Part shown: positions 119-45,563 of the stretch, one piece after another
How positions within the stretch are numbered: the stretch's first letter is position 1
Layout: each line of letters opens with the position of its first letter
Position numbers and translations under genes: made by a program
Assembly (NCBI GenBank): GCA_022736275.1
Contig: DZBJ01000003.1
Span: forward strand, 6,727 to 70,726
Length of the DNA: 64,000 bases
Source: Rikenella microfusus
Lineage (GTDB): Bacteria > Bacteroidota > Bacteroidia > Bacteroidales > VadinHA17
Reading direction: 5' to 3'
The notes under the pieces: generated by a model
Databases searched by the model: none
Told to the model about the DNA's origin: nothing
What the model saw: only the letters and a program-made list of their open reading frames with translations

Positions 119-3100
119 TTAGAATGAAAGTTTTACACCGAAAATATAGGCTCTGACACCGGGGCTGGCGAAATAATCAAAGCCCTGTCCGTTTGTAGCA
201 CCATAAACACTTACTTCCGGGTCTCCGCCCTTATATGGAGTAGAAACAAGCAGGTTATTACCTGTTGCATAGATTTCCAGCCCTTTAAGCCTGATCTTTG
301 AGAGCAAGGAATTATTAAAGATATAAGAGAGAGTGACTTCTCTCAGTTTAACCCAGCTGGCGTCTTCAACTGCCTGCGTTGCAGCTCCACCGCTGGTAAA
401 ACTGTTTTCCCCCCTGTACCATGTCTGGCTCTTAATAACTTCTGTTGTATTCTTAACCCCTTCTGATACTACATTTCCATTGGCATCGAGGTGACCGTAA
501 ACACCTTCGAATACTGTTGGAGTGTTTCTGTCGAGCGTTTCAACGGTTTGACCATAATAATTGAGGTTGAATCTTGTTCCGTTATTCACATTTCCGCCGC
601 TTTTAATGTCAACAAGCGCAGTAAGTGAGAATCCTTTATAGCTTAAAGTATTGTAAATATTCAGGGTCCAGTCCGGGCTTACTTTCCCGAGAGCAACAGT
701 TTTGGTTTTGTTGGTCCAGGGAAATCCGTCAGGGTGTGTGTCAGTCGGGTCATCATTGATAAGAACATTGCCATTGGCGTCTCTGTACCAGTCAAACCCA
801 AATATTGTAGCATAATCATAACCCACAGCTGCGTTAATCTGTGCCTTTGTATCTCCGTTAAGCAAGACATAGTCAATGTCCTGAGCAAGGGCGGTAACGG
901 GATTCTTCATTTTAGTGAAGTTGGACCTTATCTCCCACATGAAGTTTGCCGTTTTAACAGGTATGAGGTTCAGACTTATCTCAACTCCTTTACTCTCCAT
1001 TGACGCTGCATTCAAATATGATGACGAAAATCCGGTGGAGGCTGAAATTGGTACAGACAGCAGCAGGTCTATATTCTTATTGTAGAAATATGACATATCT
1101 AGGCCGATTCTGTCTTGCAGGAATTTCACCTCGGCTCCCACCTCGAAAGTTGATTGGGTTTCATGGTTCAGGTCAGGATTGCCTACCGTGTTTCCAACAG
1201 TGTAACCTGGAACACCCATGAATGGAAATGATATGCCTGAAGTATAATAATCTCCGGCACTTCCGGATGCATAGTAAGAGGATGTCCTGTATGGGTCAGC
1301 AATATTTGCTGTTTTTGCCCATGATGCTCTGATCTTGCCGAAACTGAGTATCTTATTGCCTTTAAGCGGGGCGAGTTCCGTAAGTATAAAAGCTGCACTT
1401 AAAGAAGGGAAAAGGGCTGACAGATTATCCGCCGGCATAGTGGTAGACCATTCATTTCTGAGAGTTGCTCCCAGGTAAAGCAAACTCCTGTAATCAACGC
1501 TGAGGTCAGCAAACAGGGCTGCTGTTCTGTATTCGGTGGTGCTTTGACCTGCTGTCTGCTTGCTGGTGTTATCAATGTTATATAAGCCAGGAATTGACAG
1601 ATCAGCTGTGTAAGCGGTAAGATATTTATAATATTGCTGGTAAATGTTTTGTCCCAGGTTAAGGTTAATCCCGATATCGCTACCTATCTTCCTGGTGATA
1701 GTTGCCATCAGGTCAGAATTGAACATGGAATGGAACTCTGTTCTTTCTCTGAGATAACCTTGCTGATTACCAACACTATACCAGTTGTATACATCCTGAA
1801 ATCTTCTGGTATACGAGTCCAACCCTACATTGTATGAAATGGTAAGCCAGTCAAGGACTTTGGCCTTTAAGAAAGTGCTTCCAACAAACCTGTCATTGTA
1901 GTCAAGGAAAAACTGTTCATTTGATGTCCAATAAGGGTTGTTGTAGGTTCCGTTGACACCGGTATACGTACGTTGTGTTCCATCAGGTAATTTGTACCCT
2001 GCAGCGTTATCAAAGGTGGCAGGGGTTCTGTAAAGTCCGATGCCTATGCCGGAACTTGTTCCTCCCTCACGGATAAGGTTGTTTTTGGTATGGGCATACA
2101 TCATGTTAGCACCGGTGGTAACTTTTTCAGATAGCTTTGTATCTGCGTTAAGTCTTAGTGTTGTTCTGGAAAAGGTGTTTTCCGGGACAATTCCTTTTTC
2201 CTGAAGGTTACCTATTGAGAAGAAATAGGAAGAGTTTTTATTTCCGGCCTCAATGCTTACATTGTTATTGTAAGTTATACCTTTCTGAAAGAAGTCATAC
2301 TGGTCATATGTCCTGACAGCCTCGCCGGTGTTTGTTGGTGCATAAAGGGGGTTGTTGCTTACAATTGCCCCGTCAACATCAAGTAAAGGATTGAGCCATA
2401 TTGCCGGGTCACGAGAATAGCTGCAGGTATCCAGTTGCGGACCCCAGGCGCCGTTGTATTTACTAGTCCATTTTCCGTTCAAACCCTGCCCGTACTCATT
2501 CTGTAGTTCAATGTGCCGGCCCAGTTCCTTAATTCCTATCGAAGAGTGTATGCTGACCTTCATCTTCTGATCTGTGGCACCCTTTTTTGTAGTGATTACG
2601 ATCACGCCATTTGATGCCTGTAATCCATAAAGCGCTGTGGCAGCACCGCCTTTCAGTACGCTGATAGAGGCTATATCATCCGGATTTAGGTCGATACTCC
2701 TTGAGGAGGAATAAACACCTGACTGGCCTGTACTGCCCCGATAGGAGGGCTCTGAGCTCATTGGCATGCCGTCGATCACAAATAATGGCTGGTTATTGCC
2801 TGTTAGTGACGCAGCACCCCTGATTGTCATATAGGACGCAGCTCCGGCATTGCTTGATGAGCTTGTCACCTGCAGGCCGGCAGCCTTGGCTGAGAGTGAG
2901 GAGACAATATCACTGTTGCCTCGCTTGTTCAGCTCTGTCCCTGTAACCTCCTGTACCGTATAGCCAAGGGCTTTCTTCTCCCTTGGTATACCGAGGGCAG
3001 TGACAACAACATCTCCAAGGGCATAAGCACTTGGCTGCATTGTAAGGTTGAGTACATTGCCCGTAATCTTAACCTCCTGCGGCTCCATACCGATAAATGA

Positions 3101-3313
3101 GAAGGCAAGAACATCATAGCCTGCGGGAACAGTAATTGTATATGTCCCCTGGTCATTTGTCACAGCTCCTGTAGTTGTCCCCTTTACTGAAACTGTCAGA
3201 AAAGGTAACGGATTGCCATCAGGATCTGTAACTTTTCCTGTAACCACTCTTTGACCAAACACCTGCATGCAGGCGAAAGCAAGGATGGCGAACAAAAGAA
3301 TTGTTTTTTTCAT
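119..3313 (-). CDS. SusC/RagA-family TonB-dependent outer-membrane receptor
   Basis: 1064 aa with a signal peptide. The N-terminal carboxypeptidase-regulatory-like domain reads VVTGKVTDPDGNPLPFLTVSVKGTTTGAVTNDQGTYTI. A plug region (DVVVTALGI..REKK) follows, and the beta-barrel ends in an aromatic residue (..GVKLSF). Confidence 0.9.
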   Translation of the reverse strand: MKKTILLFAILAFACMQVFGQRVVTGKVTDPDGNPLPFLTVSVKGTTTGAVTNDQGTYTITVPAGYDVLAFSFIGMEPQEVKITGNVLNLTMQPSAYALGDVVVTALGIPREKKALGYTVQEVTGTELNKRGNSDIVSSLSAKAAGLQVTSSSSNAGAASYMTIRGAASLTGNNQPLFVIDGMPMSSEPSYRGSTGQSGVYSSSRSIDLNPDDIASISVLKGGAATALYGLQASNGVIVITTKKGATDQKMKVSIHSSIGIKELGRHIELQNEYGQGLNGKWTSKYNGAWGPQLDTCSYSRDPAIWLNPLLDVDGAIVSNNPLYAPTNTGEAVRTYDQYDFFQKGITYNNNVSIEAGNKNSSYFFSIGNLQEKGIVPENTFSRTTLRLNADTKLSEKVTTGANMMYAHTKNNLIREGGTSSGIGIGLYRTPATFDNAAGYKLPDGTQRTYTGVNGTYNNPYWTSNEQFFLDYNDRFVGSTFLKAKVLDWLTISYNVGLDSYTRRFQDVYNWYSVGNQQGYLRERTEFHSMFNSDLMATITRKIGSDIGINLNLGQNIYQQYYKYLTAYTADLSIPGLYNIDNTSKQTAGQSTTEYRTAALFADLSVDYRSLLYLGATLRNEWSTTMPADNLSALFPSLSAAFILTELAPLKGNKILSFGKIRASWAKTANIADPYRTSSYYASGSAGDYYTSGISFPFMGVPGYTVGNTVGNPDLNHETQSTFEVGAEVKFLQDRIGLDMSYFYNKNIDLLLSVPISASTGFSSSYLNAASMESKGVEISLNLIPVKTANFMWEIRSNFTKMKNPVTALAQDIDYVLLNGDTKAQINAAVGYDYATIFGFDWYRDANGNVLINDDPTDTHPDGFPWTNKTKTVALGKVSPDWTLNIYNTLSYKGFSLTALVDIKSGGNVNNGTRFNLNYYGQTVETLDRNTPTVFEGVYGHLDANGNVVSEGVKNTTEVIKSQTWYRGENSFTSGGAATQAVEDASWVKLREVTLSYIFNNSLLSKIRLKGLEIYATGNNLLVSTPYKGGDPEVSVYGATNGQGFDYFASPGVRAYIFGVKLSF

Positions 3314-3424: not shown

Positions 3425-4471
3425 TCATGACTTCTTTATTAAAAAAGATACCGGAATCAGTGAGAATGCCAGGATAATTACCAGCAGTGTCTTGTTTGTG
3501 GTTGTAGTATTATACAGATTGGTCGATTCAGAATACTTTGTTCCAGGTGAGACTGTTATCCCGTAGCGACTTGCCAGATCTTTTATATCAAGCATGTTTA
3601 TAAAAGGGATTCCTGATTCGCTCAATAAGGATATCACTCCGCGATCCCGGTCATTACAAAGGGTCATCTCATAGTGAAGCCCGTTGGGTATTTCCAGTGA
3701 ATGGGGACAATTGCCCAGAGCGGTCTCATTGCCCCCGATATTTATCAGCAGGGAGATATTTGCCTCTCTGAAGATTTCTGCTCGTTTAACAATAGATTCA
3801 TGAAGAGTTGCCGGAACATACAGATCAACCTTGTTTCTGTAGGCTGCATTATTTATTATTGACAAGCCTTCCGGCGAAAGCCCATGACCGGCATCATTGC
3901 CTGCTCCTGCAGAGACAATAGCCGAATTGAATTTCAGGCCATTTCTTTTCAGTGTTGTTTCCATGTCGATCCATGTTGCCCCGGGTTGATTGGCACCATA
4001 CGTGGAAGCCCCCAGTGAACTCATAACAACTGGTTCAATATCCATTGTCTGAAGGGCTGCAAGTGCAGATATTGCCAGGGAAGGGAACGAACCTGAGAGT
4101 ATTACTCCCACTTTGTCACCGGAGGTGACCTCTGCTTCATGCAATAATCTGACAATCAGCGCTGAGAAATCAGGGTTTGTGGAAGTCTCTTTGGCTTCCA
4201 GTGAACCGAGGGTTGTGGTAATCTCAGACCACTCGTCACCTATCATGAAATTGAATGGCACATTTGAGTGAGCATCAGCGACAATATTATTCTCCTTCTT
4301 AAATTGTTCAATTACGCCGAACATTCTTACCGTCAGGGCAACAGCCTCATCCATTTCATCACGGTAAACAAGTGGAATCTGCTTCCGGAATAAATTGACT
4401 GACACAGTCGTTCCGGTCACTAGGACCACGAATGCTATGAGTAATCTGATATTTAAACTCAGACGATTCAT
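3425..4471 (-). CDS. Poly-gamma-glutamate system protein (membrane-anchored partner that replaces PgsA next to PgsBC in some lineages)
   Basis: 348 aa with an N-terminal TM helix and a C-terminal hydrophobic segment. It overlaps the pgsC stop by 4 nt. The call comes from position and architecture, not from a recognised catalytic motif. Confidence 0.5.
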   Translation of the reverse strand: MNRLSLNIRLLIAFVVLVTGTTVSVNLFRKQIPLVYRDEMDEAVALTVRMFGVIEQFKKENNIVADAHSNVPFNFMIGDEWSEITTTLGSLEAKETSTNPDFSALIVRLLHEAEVTSGDKVGVILSGSFPSLAISALAALQTMDIEPVVMSSLGASTYGANQPGATWIDMETTLKRNGLKFNSAIVSAGAGNDAGHGLSPEGLSIINNAAYRNKVDLYVPATLHESIVKRAEIFREANISLLINIGGNETALGNCPHSLEIPNGLHYEMTLCNDRDRGVISLLSESGIPFINMLDIKDLASRYGITVSPGTKYSESTNLYNTTTTNKTLLVIILAFSLIPVSFLIKKS

Positions 4472-4896
4472 GTAATAAACAGTGAAATCTGGAATATTAT
4501 CAACGTCACGATACCCAGGCTCAGAAGGGTGGATGTTATCTTTTGTCTGCCCATCTCATTGGCTATCAGACCGGGAATTATGTAACCAATGGACTGCAGA
4601 TCGAGTTTCATTATTTCTGCCGGCTGGATCAGATTATCAATTAGAAGCTTAAGGAAGAAGCTGAGAAGGACCGCAAGCAGGAACTTCCTCCTGCTGTATA
4701 GTATAAAATACTGTGACGCCATCCTGATGATACCGTACACAATCATTGCAATAATGACAGTCATGGTAATCCTGTCAGGTTCGTAAATAAACAGAGCAAA
4801 ATATGCAGGGGCAATCACTCCGCCTGGCGATATCCCGGTTAACTCATAAAAGATAAATCCAACCACTAATCCGATGATAAATAGCTGGAGTATCAT
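4468..4896 (-). CDS. pgsC: Poly-gamma-glutamate biosynthesis membrane protein PgsC/CapC
   Basis: 142 aa polytopic protein. ILYSRRKF and GYIIPGLIAN match the ILYGRRKF and GIIVPGLIAN segments of Bacillus PgsC as I recall them. It has 4-nt overlaps with both neighbours. Confidence 0.85.
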   Translation of the reverse strand: MILQLFIIGLVVGFIFYELTGISPGGVIAPAYFALFIYEPDRITMTVIIAMIVYGIIRMASQYFILYSRRKFLLAVLLSFFLKLLIDNLIQPAEIMKLDLQSIGYIIPGLIANEMGRQKITSTLLSLGIVTLIIFQISLFIT

Positions 4897-6032
4897 CTTA
4901 GTTCATTAAGAATGTTAAATCCCTCTCCGCCAATGTTTCCCACGCCCGCCACAAATGATCCATCATCAACACTATTGGCTAGTATGCTCTTCAGGTTACC
5001 CCTGTCTCTTCTGGTCCAGCACTTAACTTTATCCCTATCAACTCCTGACCTTAACAATGTGTTTTTCGCCCTTCCTTTATGGTTGCCGGTTAAAATTATC
5101 GTCTCAAAAGATTGCATATCTCCGGCTATCCATTCTGAGAACAGATCGGTCCTGACTGGCCGGTCTGCACGGGTGTTAAGAATTACTGAGAGTTTACCCT
5201 GATGGTCTGATACGGTCTCCCAATGTGAGAGGAAGGTCTTGGTGGAATCAATATCATTTACTGAAAAAGCATTAAGGAACCTGATGTTCTTGCTGTTTGC
5301 ATGAATTGTTGTCAGGGGAGATGTGCTTTTTGAAATCCAGTTCATTATTCCCGTTTCAGATTGGCTCAGATCTATCCCTGCCTCTCTGCAGACTGCCAGG
5401 GCAAGAGCTACATTTTCCGGAAATACTTCATAAGGTAACCTTTCTCTCAGTCGATCTTCCAATGTCTCTGTTGTGATTACGGTGCTGTTTTTTGCCGATG
5501 CCTTTTCTTTGATTCTTTTTAAAAAGCCTTTCTCATTTGTAATGACCTTACAGTTTGCCGGTATAGCATTGCATATAGCTTCAGCCTGCGACTCAACGTC
5601 TTTACCCATCTCCTCACGGTGATCATCCCTTATATTTGTTATCACGTAGATATGGGGCTGAAAAACAAATCCCTCCAGTTTCATCAATTCAGGGGAAATT
5701 GACATACACTCCAGTACCATGACCTTCACTTTTCTCCTGAAGGCTGATAATAAAATGTTTATCTGTTCCTGTACCCGTGCGACTCCGTGTCTGACTATAA
5801 TCTGTGACACTCCGTTATGAATAATAGTAGGTATGATACCCGTGATCTTTGCCATTACATCCTGACGGGAAAATGAGATACCGGCTGCGACATATTCTGT
5901 TACTGAAGACTTACCCCTTGTTCCATTAACATGAATTCTCAAGGACATATAGCGGATACTCTTCTGGACCATCCGCTTTTCAATGAATAACAGACCAAAG
6001 ATTAATATCAATATGACAGATATTGTCAGCAT
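4893..6032 (-). CDS. pgsB: Poly-gamma-glutamate synthase PgsB/CapB (Mur-ligase-like amide ligase)
   Basis: 379 aa. An N-terminal TM helix is followed by the P-loop-like IHVNGTRGKSSVTE (Bacillus PgsB has NINGIRGKSTVTR). LECMSISPE and NIRDDHREEMG resemble Mur-ligase motifs. Confidence 0.9.
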   Translation of the reverse strand: MLTISVILILIFGLLFIEKRMVQKSIRYMSLRIHVNGTRGKSSVTEYVAAGISFSRQDVMAKITGIIPTIIHNGVSQIIVRHGVARVQEQINILLSAFRRKVKVMVLECMSISPELMKLEGFVFQPHIYVITNIRDDHREEMGKDVESQAEAICNAIPANCKVITNEKGFLKRIKEKASAKNSTVITTETLEDRLRERLPYEVFPENVALALAVCREAGIDLSQSETGIMNWISKSTSPLTTIHANSKNIRFLNAFSVNDIDSTKTFLSHWETVSDHQGKLSVILNTRADRPVRTDLFSEWIAGDMQSFETIILTGNHKGRAKNTLLRSGVDRDKVKCWTRRDRGNLKSILANSVDDGSFVAGVGNIGGEGFNILNELR

Positions 6033-6081
6033 GATTTTCGTTTGATGAGATCCCTAAACAGGAATATCAATTCATTAATTA

Positions 6082-7782
6082 TCAGTATCCTATGGCTATT
6101 CCTCCTCTTCTTTTGTCTGCGGATCCCGAATACTCGCCGGTTATGGGGTCTACAAATATCATTTGGGCCCCTCCGAAAAAGAGGTCTATGCCATTATAGA
6201 CTTTAACCTGGTGGCCCATCTTCTCAAGTTCTGAACAGACTTCCGGATTAATCCCTGATTCAACATGTAAATAATCTTCAAACTTCTGGCAATAAAACCT
6301 GGGAGCAAGGTTTGCTTCATTTACATCCATACCAAAATCGATAACATTTACTACAAGCTCAATAAGTGTTGTAGTAATGCGGCTTGCGCCCGGGCTGCCA
6401 AGTATCAGAAAGGGATTTCCGTTTTTTAGGATTATAGTTGGAGTGATCGATGTCCTGCATCGCTTGCCATTCTGCATATAATTGACATTCTCAACATTGT
6501 ATGAGAAGTTAGTCATTGCATTATTAAACAGCACTCCTGATACTGTTTGTCCTGATCCGAAAAAAAGTCCCAGTGTCTGTGTCAATGCTACTGCATTGCC
6601 ATCCTTATCTATCACTGACAGGTGGGTTGTATGTCCTTCCGCGGGTTCCATCACGAGCGCCGGCTCCTTCCTGAAAGCTTTGTCAAATGCCCCGGGATTA
6701 CCGTAGTCGGCATCCCTGTATCTTGGAGGATCTAGTTTTGACTGGTTGATGCTATTGTATCTTTCCAGAGCATAGTCTTTGGAAGTAAGGCCAGCTACTG
6801 GCACACTTACGAAATCTGGGTCTCCGAGGAACTGATACCTGTCAGCATAGACCAGTTTTTCGACCTCAGCCATTATATGCAATGTTTTTGCTGATTCACT
6901 ATAATGACCACTGGCTTGAAGATCGAAGTTCTCAAGCATATTGAGACCCTGGATCAGGCTTATGCCTGACTGTGGGATATTGGATGTGAGGATATCATAA
7001 CTCCTGTAAGTACCATTCAACGGTGAAGTGATCTCTGCCTGGTAGGATGAAAAATCTTTCTCTGTCAGGACCCCTCCCCGGTCTCTGATACCTTCTACAA
7101 AAGACTCTGCCAGCTGACCTTCGTAGAATCCATTTCTGCCCTTTTCAGCAATGGTGCGCAGGACCTTCCCCAGATCGCTCTGAAGAAGTAATTCTCCCTC
7201 CATCCTGGGAAAGCCATTCTCAAGGAATACAGACGCAGTGACCGAGTCACTCATTATGTTATCGATATTGTCAAGGATAAGCTTGGCGAGGGTCTGGTCA
7301 ATAGGAAAGCCATCTTCAGCATGTCTTACTGCCGGTTCCATGATCTTACTGAGTGGCAGGCTCCCGAATTTCTCATGTGCCATTAGAAGACCTGCGACGG
7401 TGCCGGGCACCTCTATTGCCTTGCCGGAATAATTATCCCGTCCCGACTTAAAACTAGCTTCAGAGGCCCTCTCTGAGCTTCTCCCGTAGTAATTGATAAA
7501 GTACGATTTATGTTCCTTTTTCAGGTATATTACCATCCCGCCGCCACCACCAAGGCCTGAACCGTCGGGTTCAACAACGCCAATTGTAAAAGCAGCTGCT
7601 ACTGCAGCATCAACAGCATTTCCACCGCTTTTAAGCATTTCTATTGCGGCAGCGGAAGCCAGCGGATGGGCCGTGGCAACAATCCCGTTCCTTCCGGTTG
7701 ACTGGGGCAGTGACTGTCCCAGGATACCTGCATTAAATACTAATGCAAACAGTACAATAAGTTGAAGAGTTATCTTTCTCAT
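6082..7782 (-). CDS. ggt: Gamma-glutamyltransferase (GGT/CapD family, Ntn hydrolase)
   Basis: 566 aa with a signal peptide. The autoprocessing and nucleophile site reads EGHTTHLSVIDKDGNAVALTQTLG, and GSPGASRITTT lies near the C-terminus. Confidence 0.9.
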   Translation of the reverse strand: MRKITLQLIVLFALVFNAGILGQSLPQSTGRNGIVATAHPLASAAAIEMLKSGGNAVDAAVAAAFTIGVVEPDGSGLGGGGGMVIYLKKEHKSYFINYYGRSSERASEASFKSGRDNYSGKAIEVPGTVAGLLMAHEKFGSLPLSKIMEPAVRHAEDGFPIDQTLAKLILDNIDNIMSDSVTASVFLENGFPRMEGELLLQSDLGKVLRTIAEKGRNGFYEGQLAESFVEGIRDRGGVLTEKDFSSYQAEITSPLNGTYRSYDILTSNIPQSGISLIQGLNMLENFDLQASGHYSESAKTLHIMAEVEKLVYADRYQFLGDPDFVSVPVAGLTSKDYALERYNSINQSKLDPPRYRDADYGNPGAFDKAFRKEPALVMEPAEGHTTHLSVIDKDGNAVALTQTLGLFFGSGQTVSGVLFNNAMTNFSYNVENVNYMQNGKRCRTSITPTIILKNGNPFLILGSPGASRITTTLIELVVNVIDFGMDVNEANLAPRFYCQKFEDYLHVESGINPEVCSELEKMGHQVKVYNGIDLFFGGAQMIFVDPITGEYSGSADKRRGGIAIGY

Positions 7783-7826
7783 GGAATTTGCTGTATCTCG
7801 TTTGTTATTGTCATAATATCAATCTG

Positions 7827-8372
7827 TTACTTGAAAAAGTTGCCAAGGGGTATTTCCGTCTCCGCAATTTTCACCACAAGGGTCAGGGGGATATTTTTAG
7901 CTTTGGAGATAGTGGTGAAGAATCCGTCTTCATCACCCTGCTTAACCACAAGCATAGATTTTGAGTTTTCGGCAACAATTTGATTGAAGGCATCTGACTG
8001 TCCTTGTCTGCGCGCACTGCCGCCTATATGAATCATCACAATCGGTATCTTAAGGTCATTTGCAGATTTTATAAGGGCCTTGACTCTCTCCATCTCCTCC
8101 TGCTGGCTTATCCCGGCAGCTCCCAGTCCCTTTGAACTGAAGCCCGGGACAATGATCAATGTCTTAAATCCCGTGAGGTCTGCCGACTTAGCCATCAGGA
8201 TGGTTGTTGCATTAAGACCCTGCCTCTGGGCAAGCATCTTAACCAGCTTAACATCTGCACTCTGCCCGGCAGATGATATAAGTACCGGTTGTTTAAATTT
8301 CTGTGCCTCAACTGATAGTGATGTAAAGAATAGAATCAGTATTGCAACGATCATTACACTTCTTGCTTTCAA
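7827..8372 (-). CDS. Secreted hypothetical protein (alpha/beta pattern, unknown function)
   Basis: 181 aa with the signal peptide MKARSVMIVAILILFFTSLSVEAQ. I recognise no motif. It sits in the operon between the AstE-like gene and ggt. Confidence 0.6.
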   Translation of the reverse strand: MKARSVMIVAILILFFTSLSVEAQKFKQPVLISSAGQSADVKLVKMLAQRQGLNATTILMAKSADLTGFKTLIIVPGFSSKGLGAAGISQQEEMERVKALIKSANDLKIPIVMIHIGGSARRQGQSDAFNQIVAENSKSMLVVKQGDEDGFFTTISKAKNIPLTLVVKIAETEIPLGNFFK

Positions 8373-8383
8373 ATTTCTATTTT

Positions 8384-9514
8384 TTAGTTCTTTAAATATT
8401 CACCCACTCCATTTTCCATAATCATATCATAGTCGGGCAGGTTTTCAACCACGATTTGCATCTCAGGATAGTAATAATTATAAGAGTTAATCAGCTCAAT
8501 GAAGCCCATAATATGCCTTCCGACACGATGTTCAATGGGTTCACCTGTCTCTTCCCTGTAAGCAATTCTTAACGCACCTGTTTCTTTTGCCTTTTTATAA
8601 TTGTCACAATCACCTCTCAGGACGAGGTCAACATTGGTCTCACCTCTTAATCTTCCCATAGAAGGATTACTGGTCTCCATGAGAAAGGGGATTGCGTTGG
8701 TATAGTCACCCCATTCCCGGTGGCTCAGGCCATGAAAATTCTTTGGAGATGTCTCAGGTGAAAACTGCAGCCCGGCCATCTCAAGTCCCAGTACGGCGTT
8801 CATAGCTATATCTTCATATTTTTCATTGTAGACAATAACATTTACAATCGGTACTTCCGGCGAGGATTCATGAAGATCGAAGGCAATATTTACATTCTCT
8901 TTTTTGATTATTTGAATAATTGCATAGGCCACCTTTTCAGTCAGGGTCCCGTCAGGCCGGCCCGGGTATGCGCGGTTAATATTTCTTGTTTCAAACCCGG
9001 ACAATTGCTGGTTTGAAGGATACTGTGCAAAAACCAGGGGATCAGGCCATTGATCAAGAGGATTTGTCACTCTCGAGCCAAGCCTGAACACCCGCGTGCC
9101 ATTTTTAGTCGGTATCTCATAAGATGAGGGGAAGCCTTCCATGGGATCAGAACAGGTAAATGCGCTGTTATTCAGCCGGGGGATAATGATCACCCTGCCA
9201 CAGGTGACCCTGAGGTTCTCGAGTATGACTACGGTTGAAAGAAAGGAAGCCGCTTCATTGGCATGGGTCCCGCCGCAAAGAAGAGCGGTACCACCTGCCA
9301 CGCCGCTGTCATACAGGTAGACTTCCGTATCACCGTTGGTGCCGGTGATGCCATCAAAATAATCGCTCAGCATTCCTTTACTTGTAAGGCTGGCGCTGGG
9401 ATACAATACCTCGGGGTGATGCATTTTACCGAATGCAATTGCTGCTATGACACCCATAGCAGCTGTTAAGATTGAGATTATGATGGTGGAGAGATGATTT
9501 CTGATCATAGCCAT
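8384..9514 (-). CDS. Succinylglutamate desuccinylase/aspartoacylase (AstE/AspA)-family zinc amidohydrolase, membrane-anchored
   Basis: 376 aa with an N-terminal TM helix (LSTIIISILTAAMGVIAAIAF). The GGTHANEAAS motif (H-x-x-E metal site) and the later DLHES are typical of the M14-like AstE/AspA fold. Confidence 0.65.
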   Translation of the reverse strand: MAMIRNHLSTIIISILTAAMGVIAAIAFGKMHHPEVLYPSASLTSKGMLSDYFDGITGTNGDTEVYLYDSGVAGGTALLCGGTHANEAASFLSTVVILENLRVTCGRVIIIPRLNNSAFTCSDPMEGFPSSYEIPTKNGTRVFRLGSRVTNPLDQWPDPLVFAQYPSNQQLSGFETRNINRAYPGRPDGTLTEKVAYAIIQIIKKENVNIAFDLHESSPEVPIVNVIVYNEKYEDIAMNAVLGLEMAGLQFSPETSPKNFHGLSHREWGDYTNAIPFLMETSNPSMGRLRGETNVDLVLRGDCDNYKKAKETGALRIAYREETGEPIEHRVGRHIMGFIELINSYNYYYPEMQIVVENLPDYDMIMENGVGEYLKN

Positions 9515-9660
9515 TACTTAATTTGAAGTAAACGAACAATGAAAATTAGCAGTACCATCGCTATGGCCAGTTGATTCCTCCATTTTTTCTCCTTCAGGAA
9601 TTCAATTATAACCACGAAGGTGACATAGGCAAGGATCAGTGTATAAATAACATATAGCAT
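9514..9660 (-). CDS. Small two-helix membrane protein (48 aa), absent from the supplied ORF track
   Basis: My translation gives MLYVIYTLILAYVTFVVIIEFLKEKKWRNQLAIAMVLLIFIVRLLQIK. That is two hydrophobic helices around a basic loop. Its stop codon (9514-9516) shares one base with the ATG of the downstream gene, and its ATG lies 10 nt after the permease stop. Confidence 0.45.
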   Translation of the reverse strand: MLYVIYTLILAYVTFVVIIEFLKEKKWRNQLAIAMVLLIFIVRLLQIK

Positions 9661-9669
9661 AACTCTGTT

Positions 9670-10935
9670 TTACAGTATCAAGTTTGATATTTCCTGGGCA
9701 AAGACAAGTATCAATATCCCTATTGTCATTGAAATAGCGATAGGGATGAGACATGTCTTCAGTATCTTAAAGTGATTTTTCTCTTCGATGATCTGGGCTG
9801 AGTATGCACAAATCAGTGCAGGAGGAGGCATCAAATCTCCCAGGGCAGCCATGAGCACGAGTACTGCGGTAACCACAAGGGTACTTTTACCAATAAATAC
9901 ATAGACAAGCGGTACACCAATTATTGATGCAGAACCATAGGCAGATCCCATGAAAGGCATAAGGCCGGCTGCGAGGTACCTTATTCCCTCAGGCAGGCCA
10001 AGTGCTGTTACTGCCAGGTAACCACGGACTCCCGTCAGGGCGAGTATCTGCAGAAACATCCCTACACCTACTAGGATAGCCATTACAGGCATAGCGCTGC
10101 TAAGTGCTTTTCTTGACACATCAATCAACCTGACCCCTTTCCGTGTTAACAACCCGAGAAGTGTTCCAAGTATAAAAATCAGCGGGACACCAAGATGAGG
10201 AACATACTCATGAAACCTTATTTCACCAATCATGTACAGGATGACGAAGACTATCGGCAGATAGAGTTTTAAACCATATTTCTCATCCTCTGTAGAATCA
10301 AGGTATTGCTTCACTTTTACAACATTGTAATCGCGAAGGTACCTGTACCTGAAATAGAGTGCAGTGATCAGGGCCGGAGGCATCGAGACAAGCAGGAGAG
10401 GGAGACCAAATCCGATATAGGGCATGTCAACGCCACCGCCTATGATCATCACCGGTATGCTGATTGGGGGGGCCACCTCACCGAAAACGGCTGCCATAGC
10501 TATGAGGGCACCAACAGCCAGCCTTTGCATACCAATGTTTATCAGTATAGGTGCAATCAGAGCCCCCGTAGTCAGGATACATGTTGATGACAAGCCGGTG
10601 AGCATACCCGGAAACATAACAAAAACAGTAATCACTATTATAAGAAGGGTTGGCTGCCGGTAAAAAAGCTTGAGAATGCCTCTGCTAACCCCTGCGAGTG
10701 CGCCGGTTTCCTGCATTACACGCATGAAAATCATCGCTGTTGAGATTATCAGAATAGCCTCAAGAAAGCCAAAACCTCCCTCTACCAGATGCCTAGCCGG
10801 TATACCCTGGCCCCCTGTGAGAGCTCCCACAACAGCTGCCAGCATGAGAGAAACACCTGCGGGCATCTTGAGAAGAAAGATACTTAATGCAAATGTTGCA
10901 AGCATGCAAATGAAAATGATCAACTCAATACTCAT
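9670..10935 (-). CDS. DctM/TRAP-large-subunit-like (ion-transporter superfamily) permease
   Basis: 421 aa polytopic membrane protein. The N-terminal region resembles DctM-type permeases. No DctP or DctQ partner of normal size is adjacent. Confidence 0.55.
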   Translation of the reverse strand: MSIELIIFICMLATFALSIFLLKMPAGVSLMLAAVVGALTGGQGIPARHLVEGGFGFLEAILIISTAMIFMRVMQETGALAGVSRGILKLFYRQPTLLIIVITVFVMFPGMLTGLSSTCILTTGALIAPILINIGMQRLAVGALIAMAAVFGEVAPPISIPVMIIGGGVDMPYIGFGLPLLLVSMPPALITALYFRYRYLRDYNVVKVKQYLDSTEDEKYGLKLYLPIVFVILYMIGEIRFHEYVPHLGVPLIFILGTLLGLLTRKGVRLIDVSRKALSSAMPVMAILVGVGMFLQILALTGVRGYLAVTALGLPEGIRYLAAGLMPFMGSAYGSASIIGVPLVYVFIGKSTLVVTAVLVLMAALGDLMPPPALICAYSAQIIEEKNHFKILKTCLIPIAISMTIGILILVFAQEISNLIL

Positions 10936-11039
10936 AAATGAAAGTTATGCAATATGCCGTTCCCAAAAGCCATGCCAGTATTCCAAGTTACTGATTTATA
11001 ATATAATATAAGAGACCGTCCATGTTTGTTTAGGATGAC

Positions 11040-11357: not shown

Positions 11358-12320
11358 ATGGCAAAATCAAAGCAGAGGTATAGAAACATATACTTCTTTC
11401 TGTTGTTTTTATTAATATCGGTTCCATTTCTTGCAGCACAAGAGATACCTACTGCTGGTTTTATTGATGGAACAAATGGATACATTGGCTTTCTGCCTGG
11501 CAATATGCCGCTGGTTATTTCCATTCCACATGGCGGGTATTTGATGCCTGATGAGATTCCTGAGAGGCCATGTGTCAACTGTTCTAAGAATCAGGATATT
11601 TTTACCCTCGAGATCGGTATGGGAATAAGAGATGCAATATTCAGACAAACCGGTCACTACCCGTACGTCATTATTAATAATCTGCACCGGACAAGGTTGG
11701 ATCCAAATCGGAACATATCAGAAGCATCAGATGGAAATAAGAATGCAGAACTTGTTTGGCACCAGTTCCAGAATTGTATTGATAGTGCATGCTCAGAAGT
11801 AGAAAGCAAATTTGGGAAGGGGTTGTATATTGACCTTCATGGACATCGTCATCTGATTAAAAGGACAGAATTGGGGTACTTACTGAGTAATGAGGAACTT
11901 CAGTTAGAGGATGAACTTCTTGACCTGGACTCATTTGTGGAATTCAGCAGTATCAAGAGCCTGGTTGACAATAATTTAAATAGATTGTCATTTTCACAGT
12001 TGATTAGGGGTAAAGACAGTTTTGGAAGTTTATTTGAGGCGAAGGGCTACCCCACTGTTCCTAGCCGCGGAATTCCGTTTCCGGACTCCGGAGAGCCTTA
12101 TTTTAGCGGGGGTTATAACACAACCCGTCATGGATCATCCCAGGGTGGGACAATAGATGGGATACAGATTGAGCTCGATGAGGAGCTTAGAAGAGATATG
12201 TCAAAACGCGATAAATTGGTTGCCGATCTCGCATGTACTATGGTTGAGTTTCTTAAGATCCATTATTTCCCGGATGCTGATTTTCTCGGAGAGATGGCTC
12301 CCGGTAACAAACAACCGTAG
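11358..12320 (+). CDS. Secreted N-formylglutamate amidohydrolase (FGase)-family protein
   Basis: 320 aa with a signal peptide. ISIPHGGYLMPDEIPE and YIDLHGHRH resemble FGase-family metal and substrate motifs. The family assignment is from memory. Confidence 0.5.
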   Translation: MAKSKQRYRNIYFFLLFLLISVPFLAAQEIPTAGFIDGTNGYIGFLPGNMPLVISIPHGGYLMPDEIPERPCVNCSKNQDIFTLEIGMGIRDAIFRQTGHYPYVIINNLHRTRLDPNRNISEASDGNKNAELVWHQFQNCIDSACSEVESKFGKGLYIDLHGHRHLIKRTELGYLLSNEELQLEDELLDLDSFVEFSSIKSLVDNNLNRLSFSQLIRGKDSFGSLFEAKGYPTVPSRGIPFPDSGEPYFSGGYNTTRHGSSQGGTIDGIQIELDEELRRDMSKRDKLVADLACTMVEFLKIHYFPDADFLGEMAPGNKQP

Positions 12321-44853: not shown

Positions 44854-45563
44854 TGTGTCTTTGAATTGGCATCCAGAACATCGTCAGAGTTAAACTGAAA
44901 CCCCAGCCTTTTCCCGGTTATCAGCCGTGAATGCTGAATCTTAGATTCTGCCTGACCTACGGAAGCGATCTTCACAGTGTCATATGGCGGCACCAGCAGA
45001 TCAAATTCGAGTGAATAGTTGATGGCGGTATAAACGACTTTTTGCAGTGACTCAATGCTGAAGGCTTCATTTCCGTAGTTGGTGAAAAGCATTCCCATCT
45101 GCCTTTTACCTTCGACAAAGTACTGGTTCTCATGGTTGATGAAAATACGGGCGATGAGATATCCCAGGTCATCGAGCCTTTGATATTTGAATGAGTCAGC
45201 CAGGAAGTTGTAAATGTTTATTATACCGCTGTAGGCGTTGAACTTGTTTTTCTGAATATATGCGGTTTTCCAGGCGGGATGTTCACGGTCAAACTGGAAA
45301 ATGTTGGAGTGCATGCTGAAGAGAAGCGTGTCGGCAGCAACCATCAGTTGCGCGTCAAAAGTACTCCTGTCAGTATATTCCATGCGTACCCTGGGGTCTA
45401 CTCCTCCAAGGTTGCCGTTCACCTCCTTCGCCAATTGCTTGAGTATCTCCTTGATCATCATGAAAACCGTTCCGGTATTGTCAAAGACCTTCTGCTTAAG
45501 TACGGACTTGGTCTTCAGGGTCTCAACTATCAATGCCTTTCTCTGGCCTGTATCGTCAGTCAT
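44850..45563 (-). CDS. Hypothetical protein without a signal peptide
   Basis: 237 aa with no recognised motif. It overlaps the downstream Omp85-like gene by 4 nt. Confidence 0.6.
   Translation of the reverse strand: MTDDTGQRKALIVETLKTKSVLKQKVFDNTGTVFMMIKEILKQLAKEVNGNLGGVDPRVRMEYTDRSTFDAQLMVAADTLLFSMHSNIFQFDREHPAWKTAYIQKNKFNAYSGIINIYNFLADSFKYQRLDDLGYLIARIFINHENQYFVEGKRQMGMLFTNYGNEAFSIESLQKVVYTAINYSLEFDLLVPPYDTVKIASVGQAESKIQHSRLITGKRLGFQFNSDDVLDANSKTQ

What the first reader, a model, noticed from the sequence alone, without database searches (positions are those of the whole stretch)
3425..10935. Non-canonical poly-gamma-glutamate operon: PgsB/PgsC embedded with GGT, an AstE/AspA-type amidohydrolase, unknown small proteins and a DctM-like permease
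Eight genes lie on the minus strand with gaps of 50 nt or less or with 1-4-nt overlaps. The order is permease, 48-aa membrane peptide, membrane-anchored AstE/AspA-like zinc amidohydrolase, secreted 181-aa unknown, GGT, PgsB, PgsC and a 348-aa membrane protein. The canonical Bacillus system is pgsB-pgsC-pgsA(-pgsE), and no PgsA/CapA-like gene is visible here. In B. anthracis the GGT-family protein CapD anchors or trims the polymer, so a GGT immediately upstream of pgsB fits a CapD-like role. An amidohydrolase from a family that acts on N-acyl-Glu/Asp, plus a dedicated permease, suggests a combined module that makes, trims and imports a gamma-glutamyl polymer or oligomer. The product could be something other than classical PGA. 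I do not know this gene combination as a characterised system in a diderm Bacteroidota.
Basis: partly seen in the sequence, partly recalled or inferred. Interest (0 to 1): 0.65.

Follow-up and report, generated by a model that had tools for sequence, protein, structure and literature searches.

The report
PgsA-less polyglutamate synthesis-and-recycling gene cluster
This Bacteroidales operon joins a variant poly-gamma-glutamate synthase to a fixed set of secreted gamma-glutamyl-cutting enzymes and a transporter; the same gene set recurs in many mostly uncultured bacterial phyla and I found no publication describing it.

Summary
Eight tightly packed minus-strand genes lie at 3425-10935. PgsB and PgsC pass their NCBIfam cut-offs. 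The 348-aa protein is TIGR04332, "poly-gamma-glutamate system protein", and sits where PgsA normally does. No PgsA (PGA_cap) match occurs in the listed ORFs of 180 aa or more that were scanned.

The combination is not local chance.
- In 48 species-level genome loci anchored on TIGR04332, 44 also carry the permease, the AstE-like hydrolase and DUF6305, and 39 also carry GGT. They span Bacteroidota, Zixibacteria, Ignavibacteriota, Marinimicrobia, Aminicenantes and others.
- In the reverse test, 26 of about 32 DUF6305-anchored metagenome loci carry pgsB-pgsC-TIGR04332.

The GGT lacks the lid loop, as Bacillus GGT does. The AstE-like enzyme keeps its zinc and carboxylate-binding motifs. A conserved sigma-54-type promoter precedes the permease. 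On the same contig the locus continues with SusC/SusD, an exported glutamate racemase, a sigma-54 two-component system and a type-IX-secreted FGase-like hydrolase.

Best reading (0.55): a make-trim-reclaim system for a gamma-glutamyl polymer. Product and enzyme activities are inferred, not shown. Novelty: new variant of a known kind.

The parts
10963..10977 (-). Sigma-54-type promoter motif TGGCATGGCTTTTGG, ending 27 nt upstream of the permease ATG
   Evidence: Sequence read and matched. TGGCA[CT]-N5-TTG lies within 200 nt upstream of the permease gene in 33 of 77 distinct loci. Shuffles give a mean of 0.08, and the background is 0.006 per 200 nt. A sigma-54-dependent NtrC-type regulator is encoded in the same locus.
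9670..10935 (-). Inner-membrane permease of 421 aa with about 11 hydrophobic segments; a distant DctM/GntP/CitMHS-type (ion-transporter superfamily) secondary transporter
   Evidence: PF06808 DctM scores 36 bits over residues 5-165 only, and PF03553 scores 24 bits. There is no NCBIfam hit and no PDB sequence hit. Sources name homologues 'TRAP large permease' or 'GntP'. It is present in 45 of 48 full-flank TIGR04332 loci.
9514..9660 (-). 48-aa peptide forming a two-transmembrane hairpin, always between the permease and the AstE-like gene; probably a small transporter subunit
   Evidence: Translation. It is conserved from Bacteroidota to Aminicenantes and Thermotogae (a 51-aa form), with the motif F-x-K-E-K-x-W-(R/K) ... 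LR(L/I)LQIK. tblastn finds it in 31 of 48 loci despite its short length. No Pfam or NCBIfam family matches.
8384..9514 (-). Membrane-anchored AstE/AspA-family zinc amidohydrolase (carboxypeptidase fold), with a single N-terminal transmembrane helix and an insertion of about 45 aa
   Evidence: PF24827 scores 32.5 bits against a cut-off of 25. PDB sequence hits are 3na6, 6twm (DoeB) and 2qj8, with aligned H84-x-x-E87, N-x-N-R181-x-x-P-G and D-L-H215-E motifs. These residues are invariant in 21 homologues. Weak similarity to Csd4/M99. Present in 46 of 48 loci.
7827..8372 (-). Secreted DUF6305 protein: a signal peptide plus a flavodoxin-like alpha/beta domain of about 155 aa; function unknown
   Evidence: PF19823 scores 164 bits. 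The AF2 model has pLDDT 88. Foldseek gives only weak matches, to SGNH esterases (E 1.6e-4, TM 0.3), ThiM and class-I amidotransferase domains. Invariant loops are SAGQSAD, PGFSSKGLGAAG and H-x-GG-x-x-RR-x-GQSD, with the residue after GG a near-invariant N (S in the window protein). Present in 45 of 48 loci. Of about 32 DUF6305-anchored loci with enough flank, 26 have pgsBC-TIGR04332.
6082..7782 (-). Secreted gamma-glutamyltransferase (T03 family), lid-loop-less, with catalytic Thr385
   Evidence: TIGR00066 scores 477 bits and PF01019 scores 484 bits. The lid-loop region aligns without gaps to the lid-less B. licheniformis GGT 4y23. Against E. coli GGT 2e0w there is a 10-residue deletion exactly at the lid loop. 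Small-chain alignments begin at residue 385. Present in 40 of 48 loci.
4893..6032 (-). PgsB: the ATP-dependent gamma-glutamyl amide ligase (Mur-ligase fold), with an N-terminal membrane anchor
   Evidence: TIGR04012 scores 246.8 bits against a cut-off of 222.7, and PF08245 scores 42 bits. The P-loop NGTRGKSS is visible in the translation. Present in 47 of 48 loci.
4468..4896 (-). PgsC: the four-transmembrane membrane component of the synthase
   Evidence: TIGR04011 scores 120.5 bits against a cut-off of 96.45, and PF14102 scores 121 bits. Four hydrophobic segments are predicted. It overlaps pgsB and the next gene by 4 nt each.
3425..4471 (-). TIGR04332 'poly-gamma-glutamate system protein': transmembrane helices at both ends with an alpha/beta domain of about 290 aa between them, probably periplasmic; it occupies the PgsA position
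   Evidence: TIGR04332 scores 273 bits against a cut-off of 100, with no Pfam match. The AF2 model has pLDDT 88.6 and pTM 0.85. There is no significant PDB fold neighbour (best E 2.5e-3, TM 0.2) and no PDB profile hit. The C-terminal tail is rich in K/R and there are two invariant Cys residues. The family comprises 1238 clusters at 50% identity.
119..3313 (-). SusC/RagA TonB-dependent outer-membrane transporter, same strand, 111 nt downstream; a Bacteroidota-specific extension of the locus
   Evidence: TIGR04056 scores 616 bits. It follows TIGR04332 in 22 of 25 full-flank Bacteroidota loci and in none from other phyla. On the same-genome contig L154 it is followed by SusD, the racemase, the histidine kinase, the sigma-54 regulator and the FGase-like protein with a T9SS tail.
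11358..12320 (+). Divergently transcribed, secreted FGase-family (N-formylglutamate-amidohydrolase-like) protein; a candidate gamma-glutamyl amide hydrolase
   Evidence: PF05013 scores 32.9 bits against a cut-off of 28.9, over residues 51-124 only. It was found next to the module in 32 loci (counting the window), including Marinimicrobia and Ignavibacteriota. There are no PDB sequence hits, even with a profile. FGase-family proteins are the nearest structural neighbours of the PGA hydrolases PghL and PghP (PMC6506827).

Best explanation
The locus is a self-contained system that makes, trims and reclaims a gamma-glutamyl polymer, most likely poly-gamma-glutamate.

Proposed steps (inferred unless marked otherwise):
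1. PgsB, a cytoplasmic ATP-dependent ligase, works with PgsC and the TIGR04332 protein, which replaces PgsA. Together they polymerise glutamate and deliver the chain to the periplasm or cell surface.
2. The chain is shortened there. The lid-less GGT works from the free gamma-glutamyl (amino-terminal) end.
3. The membrane-anchored AstE-like zinc enzyme acts as an N-acyl-glutamate-type carboxypeptidase, working on the carboxy-terminal end or on gamma-Glu-Glu.
4. FGase-like hydrolases and possibly DUF6305 assist.
5. An exported racemase interconverts the released D- and L-glutamate.
6. The DctM-like permease with its 48-aa subunit takes the products back in.
7. Expression starts from a sigma-54 promoter in front of the permease gene and is controlled by the NtrC-type two-component system of the locus.
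8. In Bacteroidota, SusC/SusD and a type-IX-secreted FGase-like enzyme add capture of polymer fragments at the outer membrane.

What is shown: gene identities, motifs, conservation, linkage and the promoter motif. What is inferred: the product, every activity, the topology and the transport direction.
For: - Synthase triad. PgsB, PgsC and TIGR04332 are all above curated cut-offs, and the last two junctions are 4-nt overlaps.
- Linkage across species. Of 48 TIGR04332-anchored loci with full flanks, 47 have pgsB/pgsC, 44 have permease + AstE-like + DUF6305, and 39 also have GGT. At least eight labelled phyla are represented.
- Reverse test. 26 of about 32 DUF6305-anchored metagenome loci carry the synthase triad, and three more are cut inside pgsB.
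- Co-inheritance. Divergences of all seven proteins are tightly correlated (Spearman rho 0.89-0.94).
- Every accessory enzyme belongs to a family acting on gamma-glutamyl or N-acyl-glutamate amides. These are the lid-less GGT, the AstE/AspA enzyme with zinc and carboxylate-binding motifs intact, and FGase-like proteins, whose fold family is nearest to the PGA hydrolases PghP and PghL.
- Predicted extracytoplasmic location. Signal peptides or membrane anchors are present on GGT, DUF6305, AstE-like, FGase-like, TIGR04332 and the racemase.
- Racemase. All 32 racemase-like neighbours have an N-terminal hydrophobic, signal-like segment (31 of 32 above the hydropathy threshold used). The two catalytic Cys motifs are present in 32 and 31 of the 32.
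- Independent recovery module. L094-L096 have SusC/SusD + AstE + p48 + permease + DUF6305 + GGT without an adjacent synthase. This indicates that these genes form a breakdown and uptake unit of their own.
- Regulation. A sigma-54 motif is conserved upstream of the permease gene, and a sigma-54 activator lies in the locus.
- Precedent from established knowledge. B. subtilis pairs pgsBCAE with pgdS and uses Ggt to consume PGA. B. anthracis carries the GGT homologue capD inside capBCADE.
Against: - No chemistry. Nothing shows that a polymer is made or what it consists of.
- Francisella capBCA may be a TIGR04332-type relative. That rests only on an annotation string. It has no demonstrated PGA product and an unknown function.
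- Co-transcribing a synthase with several hydrolases from one promoter looks wasteful unless the activities are separated in space or time.
- The permease, the 48-aa peptide, the AstE-like enzyme and DUF6305 are about as tightly linked to pgsBC as TIGR04332 is, including in lineages labelled as monoderm (L068, L074). They could therefore be parts of the synthase machinery rather than a recycling arm.
- The topology of the AstE-like domain is ambiguous by charge bias.
- DUF6305 has no convincing structural or functional analogue.
- The FGase-like match is marginal and partial.
- Sampling bias. The TIGR04332 loci were retrieved with two peptide motifs taken from Bacteroidota sequences. The linkage figures therefore describe this subfamily and not all TIGR04332 systems.
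Confidence: 0.55

Rival explanations
1. The locus is mainly a scavenging system for environmental poly-gamma-glutamate or gamma-glutamyl peptides, a peptide version of a Bacteroidota utilisation locus. A surface hydrolase cuts the polymer. SusC/SusD import the fragments. Periplasmic GGT, AstE-like and FGase-like enzymes reduce them to glutamate. The racemase converts D-Glu, and the permease imports it. PgsBC-TIGR04332 plays a secondary part, for example re-polymerising surplus glutamate as an external store.
For: - The Bacteroidales locus has every element of a utilisation locus: SusC/SusD, a T9SS-tailed hydrolase-like protein, periplasmic exo-enzymes, an inner-membrane permease and a dedicated sensor-regulator pair.
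- L094-L096 keep SusC/SusD plus the five breakdown and uptake genes without an adjacent synthase.
- An exported racemase fits catabolism of D-Glu-containing polymer.
Against: - The synthase triad accompanies the module in about 90% of loci in both directions.
- Its divergence tracks the module.
- SusC/SusD are confined to Bacteroidota, whereas the synthase-plus-module core spans many phyla.
- A pure catabolic system has no need of an ATP-dependent gamma-glutamyl ligase.
Confidence: 0.17
2. The product is not classical high-molecular-weight PGA. The PgsB-type ligase with TIGR04332 could build short gamma-glutamyl oligomers, or gamma-glutamylate an envelope component or small molecule. GGT and the zinc amidohydrolases would then edit or remove that modification, and the permease would move the precursor or the released product.
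For: - PgsB passes its equivalog cut-off only narrowly (246.8 against 222.7) and is the least conserved core protein, with a median 42% identity.
- TIGR04332 has a fold with no solved neighbour and no similarity to PgsA.
- The only studied candidate relative, Francisella capBCA, is needed for virulence, yet no PGA capsule role was found.
Against: - PgsB and PgsC still meet models built as equivalogs of the PGA synthase.
- All accessory enzymes fit a homopolymer of glutamate without needing another substrate.
- No gene in the conserved core suggests a second building block or an acceptor.
Confidence: 0.15
3. The permease, the 48-aa peptide, the AstE-like protein and DUF6305 are integral parts of the synthase rather than a recycling arm. 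Together with TIGR04332 they would replace PgsA and PgsE. Possible roles are glutamate supply at the membrane, chain release or length control, and handing the polymer outward.
For: - They are linked to pgsBC about as tightly as TIGR04332 is (44-46 of 48 loci), including in loci labelled Bacilli, Clostridia and Thermotogae that lack GGT.
- The permease, small peptide and AstE-like genes stay adjacent through all rearrangements.
- Canonical systems also need a small membrane peptide (PgsE/CapE; established knowledge).
Against: - L094-L096 keep these genes with GGT and SusC/SusD but without an adjacent synthase.
- Transporters of this superfamily move small solutes, not polymers (established knowledge).
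- Some TIGR04332 loci lack the module altogether (L045, L070).
Confidence: 0.1

Closest known systems
Bacillus subtilis pgsBCAE with pgdS and ggt (secreted gamma-PGA)
   Same: It has a PgsB ligase and a PgsC membrane partner above family thresholds. The synthase is genetically coupled to polymer-cutting enzymes. The GGT lacks the lid loop, like the Bacillus enzyme, which is known to consume PGA from the amino-terminal end (established knowledge).
   Different: No PgsA (PGA_cap) was found; TIGR04332 sits in its place and has an unrelated fold. There is no NlpC/P60 PgdS. The hydrolases here are instead AstE-like and FGase-like zinc enzymes plus DUF6305. GGT lies inside the operon. A dedicated permease with a 48-aa subunit is present. 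The host is a diderm, and control is by sigma-54 with an NtrC-type system.
Bacillus anthracis capBCADE (anchored capsule)
   Same: A GGT-family gene is embedded in the synthase operon. A small membrane peptide is encoded in the cluster.
   Different: The GGT here is much closer to ordinary GGT than to CapD: 341 bits to B. licheniformis GGT and 335 bits to E. coli GGT, against 180 + 80 bits to the two CapD chains. The small peptide is a two-helix hairpin tied to the permease rather than to the synthase genes. There is no CapA. Anchoring to peptidoglycan cannot be tested here.
NCBIfam TIGR04332-type triad (pgsB-pgsC-'poly-gamma-glutamate system protein'), possibly including Francisella capBCA
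   Same: The 348-aa protein is a clear member (273 bits against a cut-off of 100) and lies directly after pgsB-pgsC. A paper lists Francisella 'capA' under the same product name.
   Different: The family is defined only by annotation, and I found no functional study of it. The Francisella link was not checked by sequence, and that locus is described as three genes of unknown function. The five to ten extra conserved genes found here are not part of that description.
Bacteroidota polysaccharide utilisation loci (SusC/SusD-based)
   Same: The locus has an adjacent SusC/SusD pair, a surface- or T9SS-targeted hydrolase-like protein, periplasmic exo-acting enzymes, an inner-membrane permease and a dedicated sensor-regulator.
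   Different: It has no carbohydrate-active enzymes, and the enzymes point to a polyamide substrate. The regulator is a classical histidine kinase with a sigma-54 activator. The locus also encodes the synthase for its presumed substrate.
TRAP (DctPQM) transporters
   Same: The large membrane protein has DctM-like similarity and is annotated as a TRAP large permease by several sources. It is accompanied by a small membrane protein and a secreted protein.
   Different: The DctM match covers only residues 5-165 at 36 bits. The small partner has 48 aa and two helices, whereas DctQ has four. There is no DctP or TAXI binding protein. DUF6305 is a single flavodoxin-like domain of about 155 aa.
Phage-type gamma-PGA hydrolases PghP/PghL (PF05908)
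   Different: None of the locus proteins gave a PF05908 match or a PDB sequence match to PghP or PghL. Activity on PGA is inferred only.

Membership tests
Canonical PgsBCA(E)/CapBCA(DE) PGA synthetase | PgsB/CapB amide ligase | tested here: met
   TIGR04012 equivalog scores 246.8 bits against a cut-off of 222.7, and the Mur_ligase_M domain is present.
Canonical PgsBCA(E)/CapBCA(DE) PGA synthetase | PgsC/CapC membrane protein | tested here: met
   TIGR04011 scores 120.5 bits against a cut-off of 96.45, and PF14102 scores 121 bits.
Canonical PgsBCA(E)/CapBCA(DE) PGA synthetase | PgsA/CapA (PGA_cap, metallophosphatase-like) third component | tested here: not met
   No PGA_cap match in the ten locus proteins or the 30 further ORFs of >=180 aa scanned. 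A few listed ORFs were not scanned. The third position is held by TIGR04332, which has no Pfam match and no PDB fold neighbour. The rest of the genome could not be checked.
Canonical PgsBCA(E)/CapBCA(DE) PGA synthetase | Small membrane peptide PgsE/CapE next to the synthase genes | tested here: inconclusive
   A 48-aa membrane peptide exists. It is a two-helix hairpin that always lies between the permease and the AstE-like gene, not beside pgsBC. No family model was available for comparison.
Canonical PgsBCA(E)/CapBCA(DE) PGA synthetase | Product is gamma-linked polyglutamate | not testable with these tools
   This needs expression followed by hydrolysis with chiral analysis, or an anti-PGA blot.
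TIGR04332-type PGA system (pgsB-pgsC-TIGR04332) | TIGR04332 protein above the curated cut-off | tested here: met
   273.4 bits against a cut-off of 100, covering profile positions 3-304 of 307.
TIGR04332-type PGA system (pgsB-pgsC-TIGR04332) | Immediate adjacency to pgsB and pgsC | tested here: met
   There are 4-nt overlaps in the window. pgsB and pgsC were found in 47 of 48 full-flank loci.
Gamma-glutamyltransferase (T03) | Full-length GGT domain with the autoprocessing catalytic Thr | tested here: met
   TIGR00066 scores 477 bits. The T385-T-H motif aligns with the start of the small chain of solved GGTs.
CapD-type or Bacillus-type polymer-accepting GGT | Absence of the lid loop over the gamma-glutamyl pocket | tested here: met
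   There is a 10-residue deletion relative to E. coli GGT at the lid loop. That region aligns without gaps to B. licheniformis GGT.
CapD-type or Bacillus-type polymer-accepting GGT | Orthology to CapD and transpeptidation of PGA to the cell wall | tested here: not met
   Similarity to CapD (180 + 80 bits) is well below that to ordinary GGTs (335-341 bits). The transpeptidase activity itself cannot be tested here.
AstE/AspA zinc amidohydrolases | Catalytic domain with the His-x-x-Glu ... His zinc site and the N-x-N-R carboxylate-binding motif | tested here: met
   PF24827 scores 32.5 bits against a cut-off of 25. The motifs align to 3na6 and 6twm and are invariant in 21 homologues.
AstE/AspA zinc amidohydrolases | Membership of a characterised equivalog (AstE, aspartoacylase, DoeB) | tested here: not met
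   The best match is DoeB TIGR02994 at 41.6 bits against a cut-off of 402.7. The protein carries an N-terminal membrane anchor and an insertion of about 45 aa that is absent from solved members.
TRAP transporter (DctPQM) | DctM large subunit | tested here: inconclusive
   PF06808 scores 36 bits against a cut-off of 23.8, but only residues 5-165 match the second half of the profile. There is no NCBIfam match.
TRAP transporter (DctPQM) | DctQ small subunit and a DctP or TAXI binding protein | tested here: not met
   No such Pfam or NCBIfam match occurs among the locus proteins. The small partner is a 48-aa hairpin.
Bacteroidota SusC/SusD utilisation locus | Adjacent SusC-SusD pair | tested here: met
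   SusC is in the window (TIGR04056, 616 bits). SusD is the next gene on the same-genome contig L154 and in L001.
Bacteroidota SusC/SusD utilisation locus | Carbohydrate-active enzymes for a glycan substrate | tested here: not met
   None of the locus proteins has a glycoside hydrolase or lyase domain. All the enzymes are amide-bond enzymes.
PghP/PghL gamma-PGA hydrolases (PF05908) | Sequence membership | tested here: not met
   The FGase-like and AstE-like proteins give no PF05908 match. Neither single sequences nor profiles hit PghP or PghL in the PDB.

The most novel reading that the evidence does not exclude
The conserved core could be an extracytoplasmic 'glutamate bank' of a kind not yet described. 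Glutamate would be polymerised with ATP and exported by a PgsA-less synthase. It would then be withdrawn on demand under sigma-54/NtrC control through previously unrecognised parts:
- a membrane-anchored AstE-type exo-gamma-glutamyl carboxypeptidase
- DUF6305 as a new polyglutamate-binding or -cleaving family
- an exported glutamate racemase
- a two-subunit secondary transporter (a DctM-like protein plus a 48-aa hairpin)

In Bacteroidota this core would be fused to SusC/SusD and type-IX secretion. That would be the first utilisation locus devoted to a polyamide rather than a glycan.
Probability: 0.3. Interest if true: 0.8.

Novelty: new variant of a known kind. Interest (0 to 1): 0.62.

Why it matters
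Poly-gamma-glutamate biology rests almost entirely on Bacillus and a few other Firmicutes. Production by diderm bacteria is barely documented.

This locus shows that a PgsA-less synthase with a fixed accessory set is widespread. Roughly a thousand sequence clusters of TIGR04332 exist, and they occur in sediment, digester and gut lineages of the Bacteroidota-Ignavibacteriota-Zixibacteria-Marinimicrobia group and beyond.

If the reading is right, several things follow:
- DUF6305 gains a functional context, as do an unnamed 48-aa peptide, an orphan transporter branch and a divergent AstE/AspA branch.
- An exported glutamate racemase is predicted.
- SusC/SusD-type uptake would apply to a polyamide.
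- New gamma-PGA synthases and depolymerases would be available for biotechnology.
- A comparative handle would exist on the unexplained Francisella capBCA virulence locus.

Tried and rejected
- **TIGR04332 as a divergent PgsA.** It has no Pfam match, no PDB profile hit and no significant fold neighbour. The idea of homology to PgsA or any known enzyme gains no support.
- **DUF6305 as a stand-alone copy of a TIGR04332 sub-domain.** Both have an I-G-G-N loop, but hhalign gives probability 1%. Rejected.
- **FGase-like protein as a PghP/PghL homologue by sequence.** Neither the single sequence nor an 18-member profile hits anything in the PDB. Only the literature-based fold relation remains.
- **T9SS-tailed proteins downstream of TIGR04332 in loci without SusC (clusters c18, c19) as FGase-like.** hhalign gives probability 2%. 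Rejected.
- **Fusion proteins as functional hints.** The long TIGR04332 representatives are either a tandem duplication or carry unknown extensions without Pfam matches. Uninformative.
- **The 48-aa peptide as PgsE/CapE.** It travels with the permease, not with pgsBC. Considered unlikely but not excluded.
- **Simple sigma-70 and terminator scans.** Nothing above shuffle expectation for promoters, and there was no convincing internal terminator.
- **My first sigma-54 pattern.** It had the spacing off by one and hit an unrelated site. It was corrected.
- **Literature.** Searches for DUF6305, the TIGR and Pfam accession numbers, pgsB+pgsC+Bacteroid*, PgsB+cryo-EM and PGA+SusD found nothing relevant. 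One search was wasted because 'SusC' matched 'susceptible'. The two Francisella CapA papers were not held.

Full report
**1. Observation**

The eight minus-strand ORFs are present exactly as described:
- permease 10935..9670
- 48-aa peptide 9660..9514
- AstE-like protein 9514..8384
- 181-aa secreted protein 8372..7827
- GGT 7782..6082
- PgsB 6032..4893
- PgsC 4896..4468
- 348-aa protein 4471..3425

Spacings are 9, -1, 11, 44, 49, -4 and -4 nt. A SusC/RagA gene follows on the same strand after 111 nt (3313..119). An FGase-like gene is transcribed divergently (11358..12320).

**2. Identities**

Scans against Pfam and NCBIfam gave:
- PgsB: TIGR04012, 246.8 bits (cut-off 222.7)
- PgsC: TIGR04011, 120.5 bits (cut-off 96.45)
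- GGT: TIGR00066, 477 bits
- AstE_AspA_cat: 32.5 bits (cut-off 25)
- 181-aa protein: DUF6305, 164 bits
- permease: DctM, 36 bits over its N-terminal half only
- 348-aa protein: NCBIfam TIGR04332, 'poly-gamma-glutamate system protein', 273 bits (cut-off 100)

No PGA_cap (PgsA/CapA) match appears in the ten locus proteins or the 30 further ORFs of 180 aa or more that were scanned. The 12.5-14.4 kb genes, ORF 61521-62735 and four nested ORFs were not scanned. The rest of the window encodes housekeeping functions.

**3. Conservation, forward test**

I aligned TIGR04332 homologues and used the alignment to fetch 80 loci from one-genome-per-species assemblies, with 10-kb flanks. I then mapped the window proteins onto them by tblastn.

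In the 48 loci with at least 7 kb upstream:
- 47 have pgsB and pgsC.
- 46 have the AstE-like gene.
- 45 have DUF6305.
- 45 have the permease.
- 40 have GGT.
- 39 have all six, and 44 have permease + AstE-like + DUF6305.

The order permease-p48-AstE-DUF6305-GGT-pgsB-pgsC-TIGR04332 is colinear in all 25 Bacteroidota loci. It is also colinear in loci labelled Zixibacteria, Krumholzibacteriota, Ignavibacteriota/Melioribacteraceae and Marinimicrobia.

The set is rearranged but still linked in Aminicenantes-type loci (which lack GGT) and in loci labelled Clostridia, Bacilli and Thermotogae. Through all rearrangements the permease, the small peptide and the AstE-like gene stay adjacent.

Identities of the seven proteins to the window copies fall together (Spearman rho 0.89-0.94).

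One caveat applies. The loci were retrieved with two peptide motifs from Bacteroidota sequences. The figures therefore describe this TIGR04332 subfamily.

**4. Conservation, reverse test**

I fetched 73 metagenome loci anchored on DUF6305. Of about 32 with enough flank:
- 26 carry pgsB-pgsC-TIGR04332.
- 3 end inside pgsB.
- 3 (L094-L096) have SusC/SusD, AstE-p48-permease and DUF6305-GGT, followed by housekeeping genes and no adjacent synthase.

The accessory genes are thus nearly always tied to the synthase. They can nevertheless stand alone as a unit together with an outer-membrane importer.

**5. Further conserved neighbours**

I clustered all ORFs of the 80 loci and scanned examples against Pfam. 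This added:
- An Asp/Glu-racemase-family protein in 32 loci. These include Zixibacteria, Ignavibacteriota and Marinimicrobia, where it lies directly before pgsB.
- FGase-like proteins in 32 loci (counting the window), some with type-IX secretion tails.
- A histidine kinase (27 loci) and a sigma-54-dependent NtrC-type regulator (26 loci).
- SusC (27 loci) and SusD (23 loci), in Bacteroidota only.

All 32 racemase-like proteins carry an N-terminal hydrophobic, signal-like segment before the DSGxGG start of the domain; 31 of 32 exceed the hydropathy threshold used. The two catalytic Cys motifs are present in 32 and 31 of the 32.

A contig encoding the identical TIGR04332 protein (L154, GCA_973317435.1) shows the locus continuing past the window edge. 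The order is SusC, SusD, racemase, kinase, sigma-54 regulator, then an FGase-like protein with a Por_Secre_tail.

**6. Regulation**

TGGCATGGCTTTTGG lies at 10963-10977 on the minus strand and ends 27 nt before the permease start codon.

TGGCA[CT]-N5-TTG is found within 200 nt upstream of the permease gene in 33 of 77 distinct loci. These are all the loci whose permease is at least 65% identical to the window copy. Shuffled sequences give a mean of 0.08, and the background density is 0.006 per 200 nt.

With a sigma-54 activator in the locus, this argues for one regulated unit starting at the permease gene. Related sequences inflate such counts. However, the motif persists where the coding identity is only 65-78%.

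**7. Component details**

*GGT.* Catalytic Thr385 is present. The lid-loop region aligns without gaps to the lid-less B. licheniformis enzyme. There is a 10-residue deletion against E. coli GGT exactly at the lid loop. By score it is an ordinary GGT rather than a CapD orthologue.

*AstE-like protein.* It has one N-terminal transmembrane helix. The H84-x-x-E87, N-x-N-R181 and D-L-H215-E motifs align to solved AstE/AspA and DoeB structures and are invariant in 21 homologues. This family removes N-acyl groups from amino acids that have a free alpha-carboxylate. The C-terminal residue of gamma-PGA, or gamma-Glu-Glu, presents exactly that chemistry (inference).

*DUF6305.* It has a signal peptide and a confident flavodoxin-like model (pLDDT 88). 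Fold matches are weak. Three loops are conserved and rich in Ser, Gly and Arg. Whether it binds the polymer or cleaves it cannot be decided here.

*TIGR04332.* The model is confident (pLDDT 88.6), with transmembrane helices at both ends. The C-terminal tail is rich in K/R and there are two invariant cysteines, which suggests a periplasmic domain. No solved structure resembles it.

*48-aa peptide.* It is a conserved two-helix hairpin found across phyla.

*Permease.* It has about 11 hydrophobic segments and no PDB relative by sequence. Sources annotate it inconsistently as a TRAP large subunit or as GntP.

**8. Interpretation**

Every enzyme in the conserved set belongs to a family that makes or breaks gamma-glutamyl or N-acyl-glutamate amide bonds. 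All the presumed hydrolases and the racemase are predicted to be exported. The simplest coherent model has three parts:
- a synthase triad that exports a gamma-glutamyl polymer
- an extracytoplasmic trimming set
- a recovery transporter

In Bacteroidota an outer-membrane capture layer is added.

Precedents are pgsBCAE-pgdS with Ggt in B. subtilis, and capD within capBCADE in B. anthracis (established knowledge).

The stand-alone modules in L094-L096 favour a breakdown and uptake role for the accessory genes. I put this model at 0.55.

The rivals are:
- mainly scavenging of exogenous polymer (0.17)
- a non-PGA gamma-glutamyl product (0.15)
- accessory genes acting as integral synthase parts (0.10)

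**9. Relation to what is known**

The pgsB-pgsC-TIGR04332 triad is recognised by NCBI's annotation model. I found no functional study of it, nor any mention of DUF6305 or of PGA together with SusD-type loci, in the searchable library.

A Francisella paper lists 'capA' as 'poly-gamma-glutamate system protein'. A review states that capBCA is needed for virulence but that its function is unknown and capB/capC are not involved in capsule production. This is a lead that I could not check by sequence.

The PghL structure paper shows that FGase-family proteins and carboxypeptidases are the nearest structural neighbours of known PGA hydrolases.

**10. Verdict**

The system is a new variant of a known kind: a PGA system with a different third component and a conserved, undescribed accessory set. 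Function still needs experiments.

Noticed in passing
L154:15940-16923 (same-genome contig, beyond the left edge of the window); also L001:15932-16915: A glutamate-racemase-like protein with an N-terminal signal-like segment. All 32 homologues in related loci have such a segment and keep the catalytic Cys motifs (32 and 31 of 32). An exported MurI-type racemase is unusual.
   Followed up: partly
L037:11023-12318, L036:11005-14253 and relatives (clusters c19 and c18): In loci that lack SusC, the gene just downstream of TIGR04332 often encodes an unknown secreted protein of about 420 aa or about 1050 aa, some with a type-IX secretion tail. It shares motifs such as C-P-H ... Q-P-H-G-F. There is no Pfam catalytic domain and no relation to the FGase-like family by hhalign.
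   Followed up: partly
L044:4783-7366, L047:4784-7369, L056:6424-7293: Marinimicrobia-type loci carry a second, shorter secreted AstE-like protein. It also matches Peptidase_M99 (Csd4-type gamma-D-Glu-mDAP carboxypeptidase, 38 bits). L044 and L047 also carry a second GGT.
   Followed up: partly
L094:1743-12294 (also L095, L096): SusC/SusD with AstE-p48-permease and DUF6305-GGT, but no pgsBC or TIGR04332 within 4.5-6.6 kb. The accessory module stands alone here.
   Followed up: partly
window 12514-14412 (+): A LytTR response regulator and a class-III aminotransferase sit beside the FGase-like gene. They are conserved only in the closest Bacteroidales loci (10 and 8 loci). GC content rises to 0.51-0.56 here, against about 0.44 in the operon.
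   Followed up: partly
window 47129-51702 (+): Three consecutive ORFs of 485, 483 and 504 aa have no Pfam match. The only other sigma-54-like motif match in the window (50886-50900) lies inside the third ORF and is probably chance.
   Followed up: no
window 43030-45563 (-): Two adjacent ORFs of 607 and 237 aa have no Pfam match. They lie between tilS and proS.
   Followed up: no
window 52358-57153: An AIR-carboxylase-like gene (LarB-type) and a nickel-insertion gene (LarC-type) lie next to a DUF362 protein and a multi-4Fe-4S protein. This may be a nickel-pincer cofactor maturation cluster.
   Followed up: no
window 28220-29128 (-): A tyrosine recombinase (phage-integrase family, XerC/D-like) lies between the pyruvate phosphate dikinase and pyruvate kinase genes.
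   Followed up: no
window 31633-34245 (+): An 870-aa protein whose only Pfam match is a CHU_C type-IX secretion signal domain. A TPR protein follows it.
   Followed up: no
P0409: One representative of the TIGR04332 family is a tandem duplication of the whole domain (618 aa). Others (P0464, P0499) carry C-terminal extensions of about 300 aa and unknown type after the second membrane helix.
   Followed up: partly
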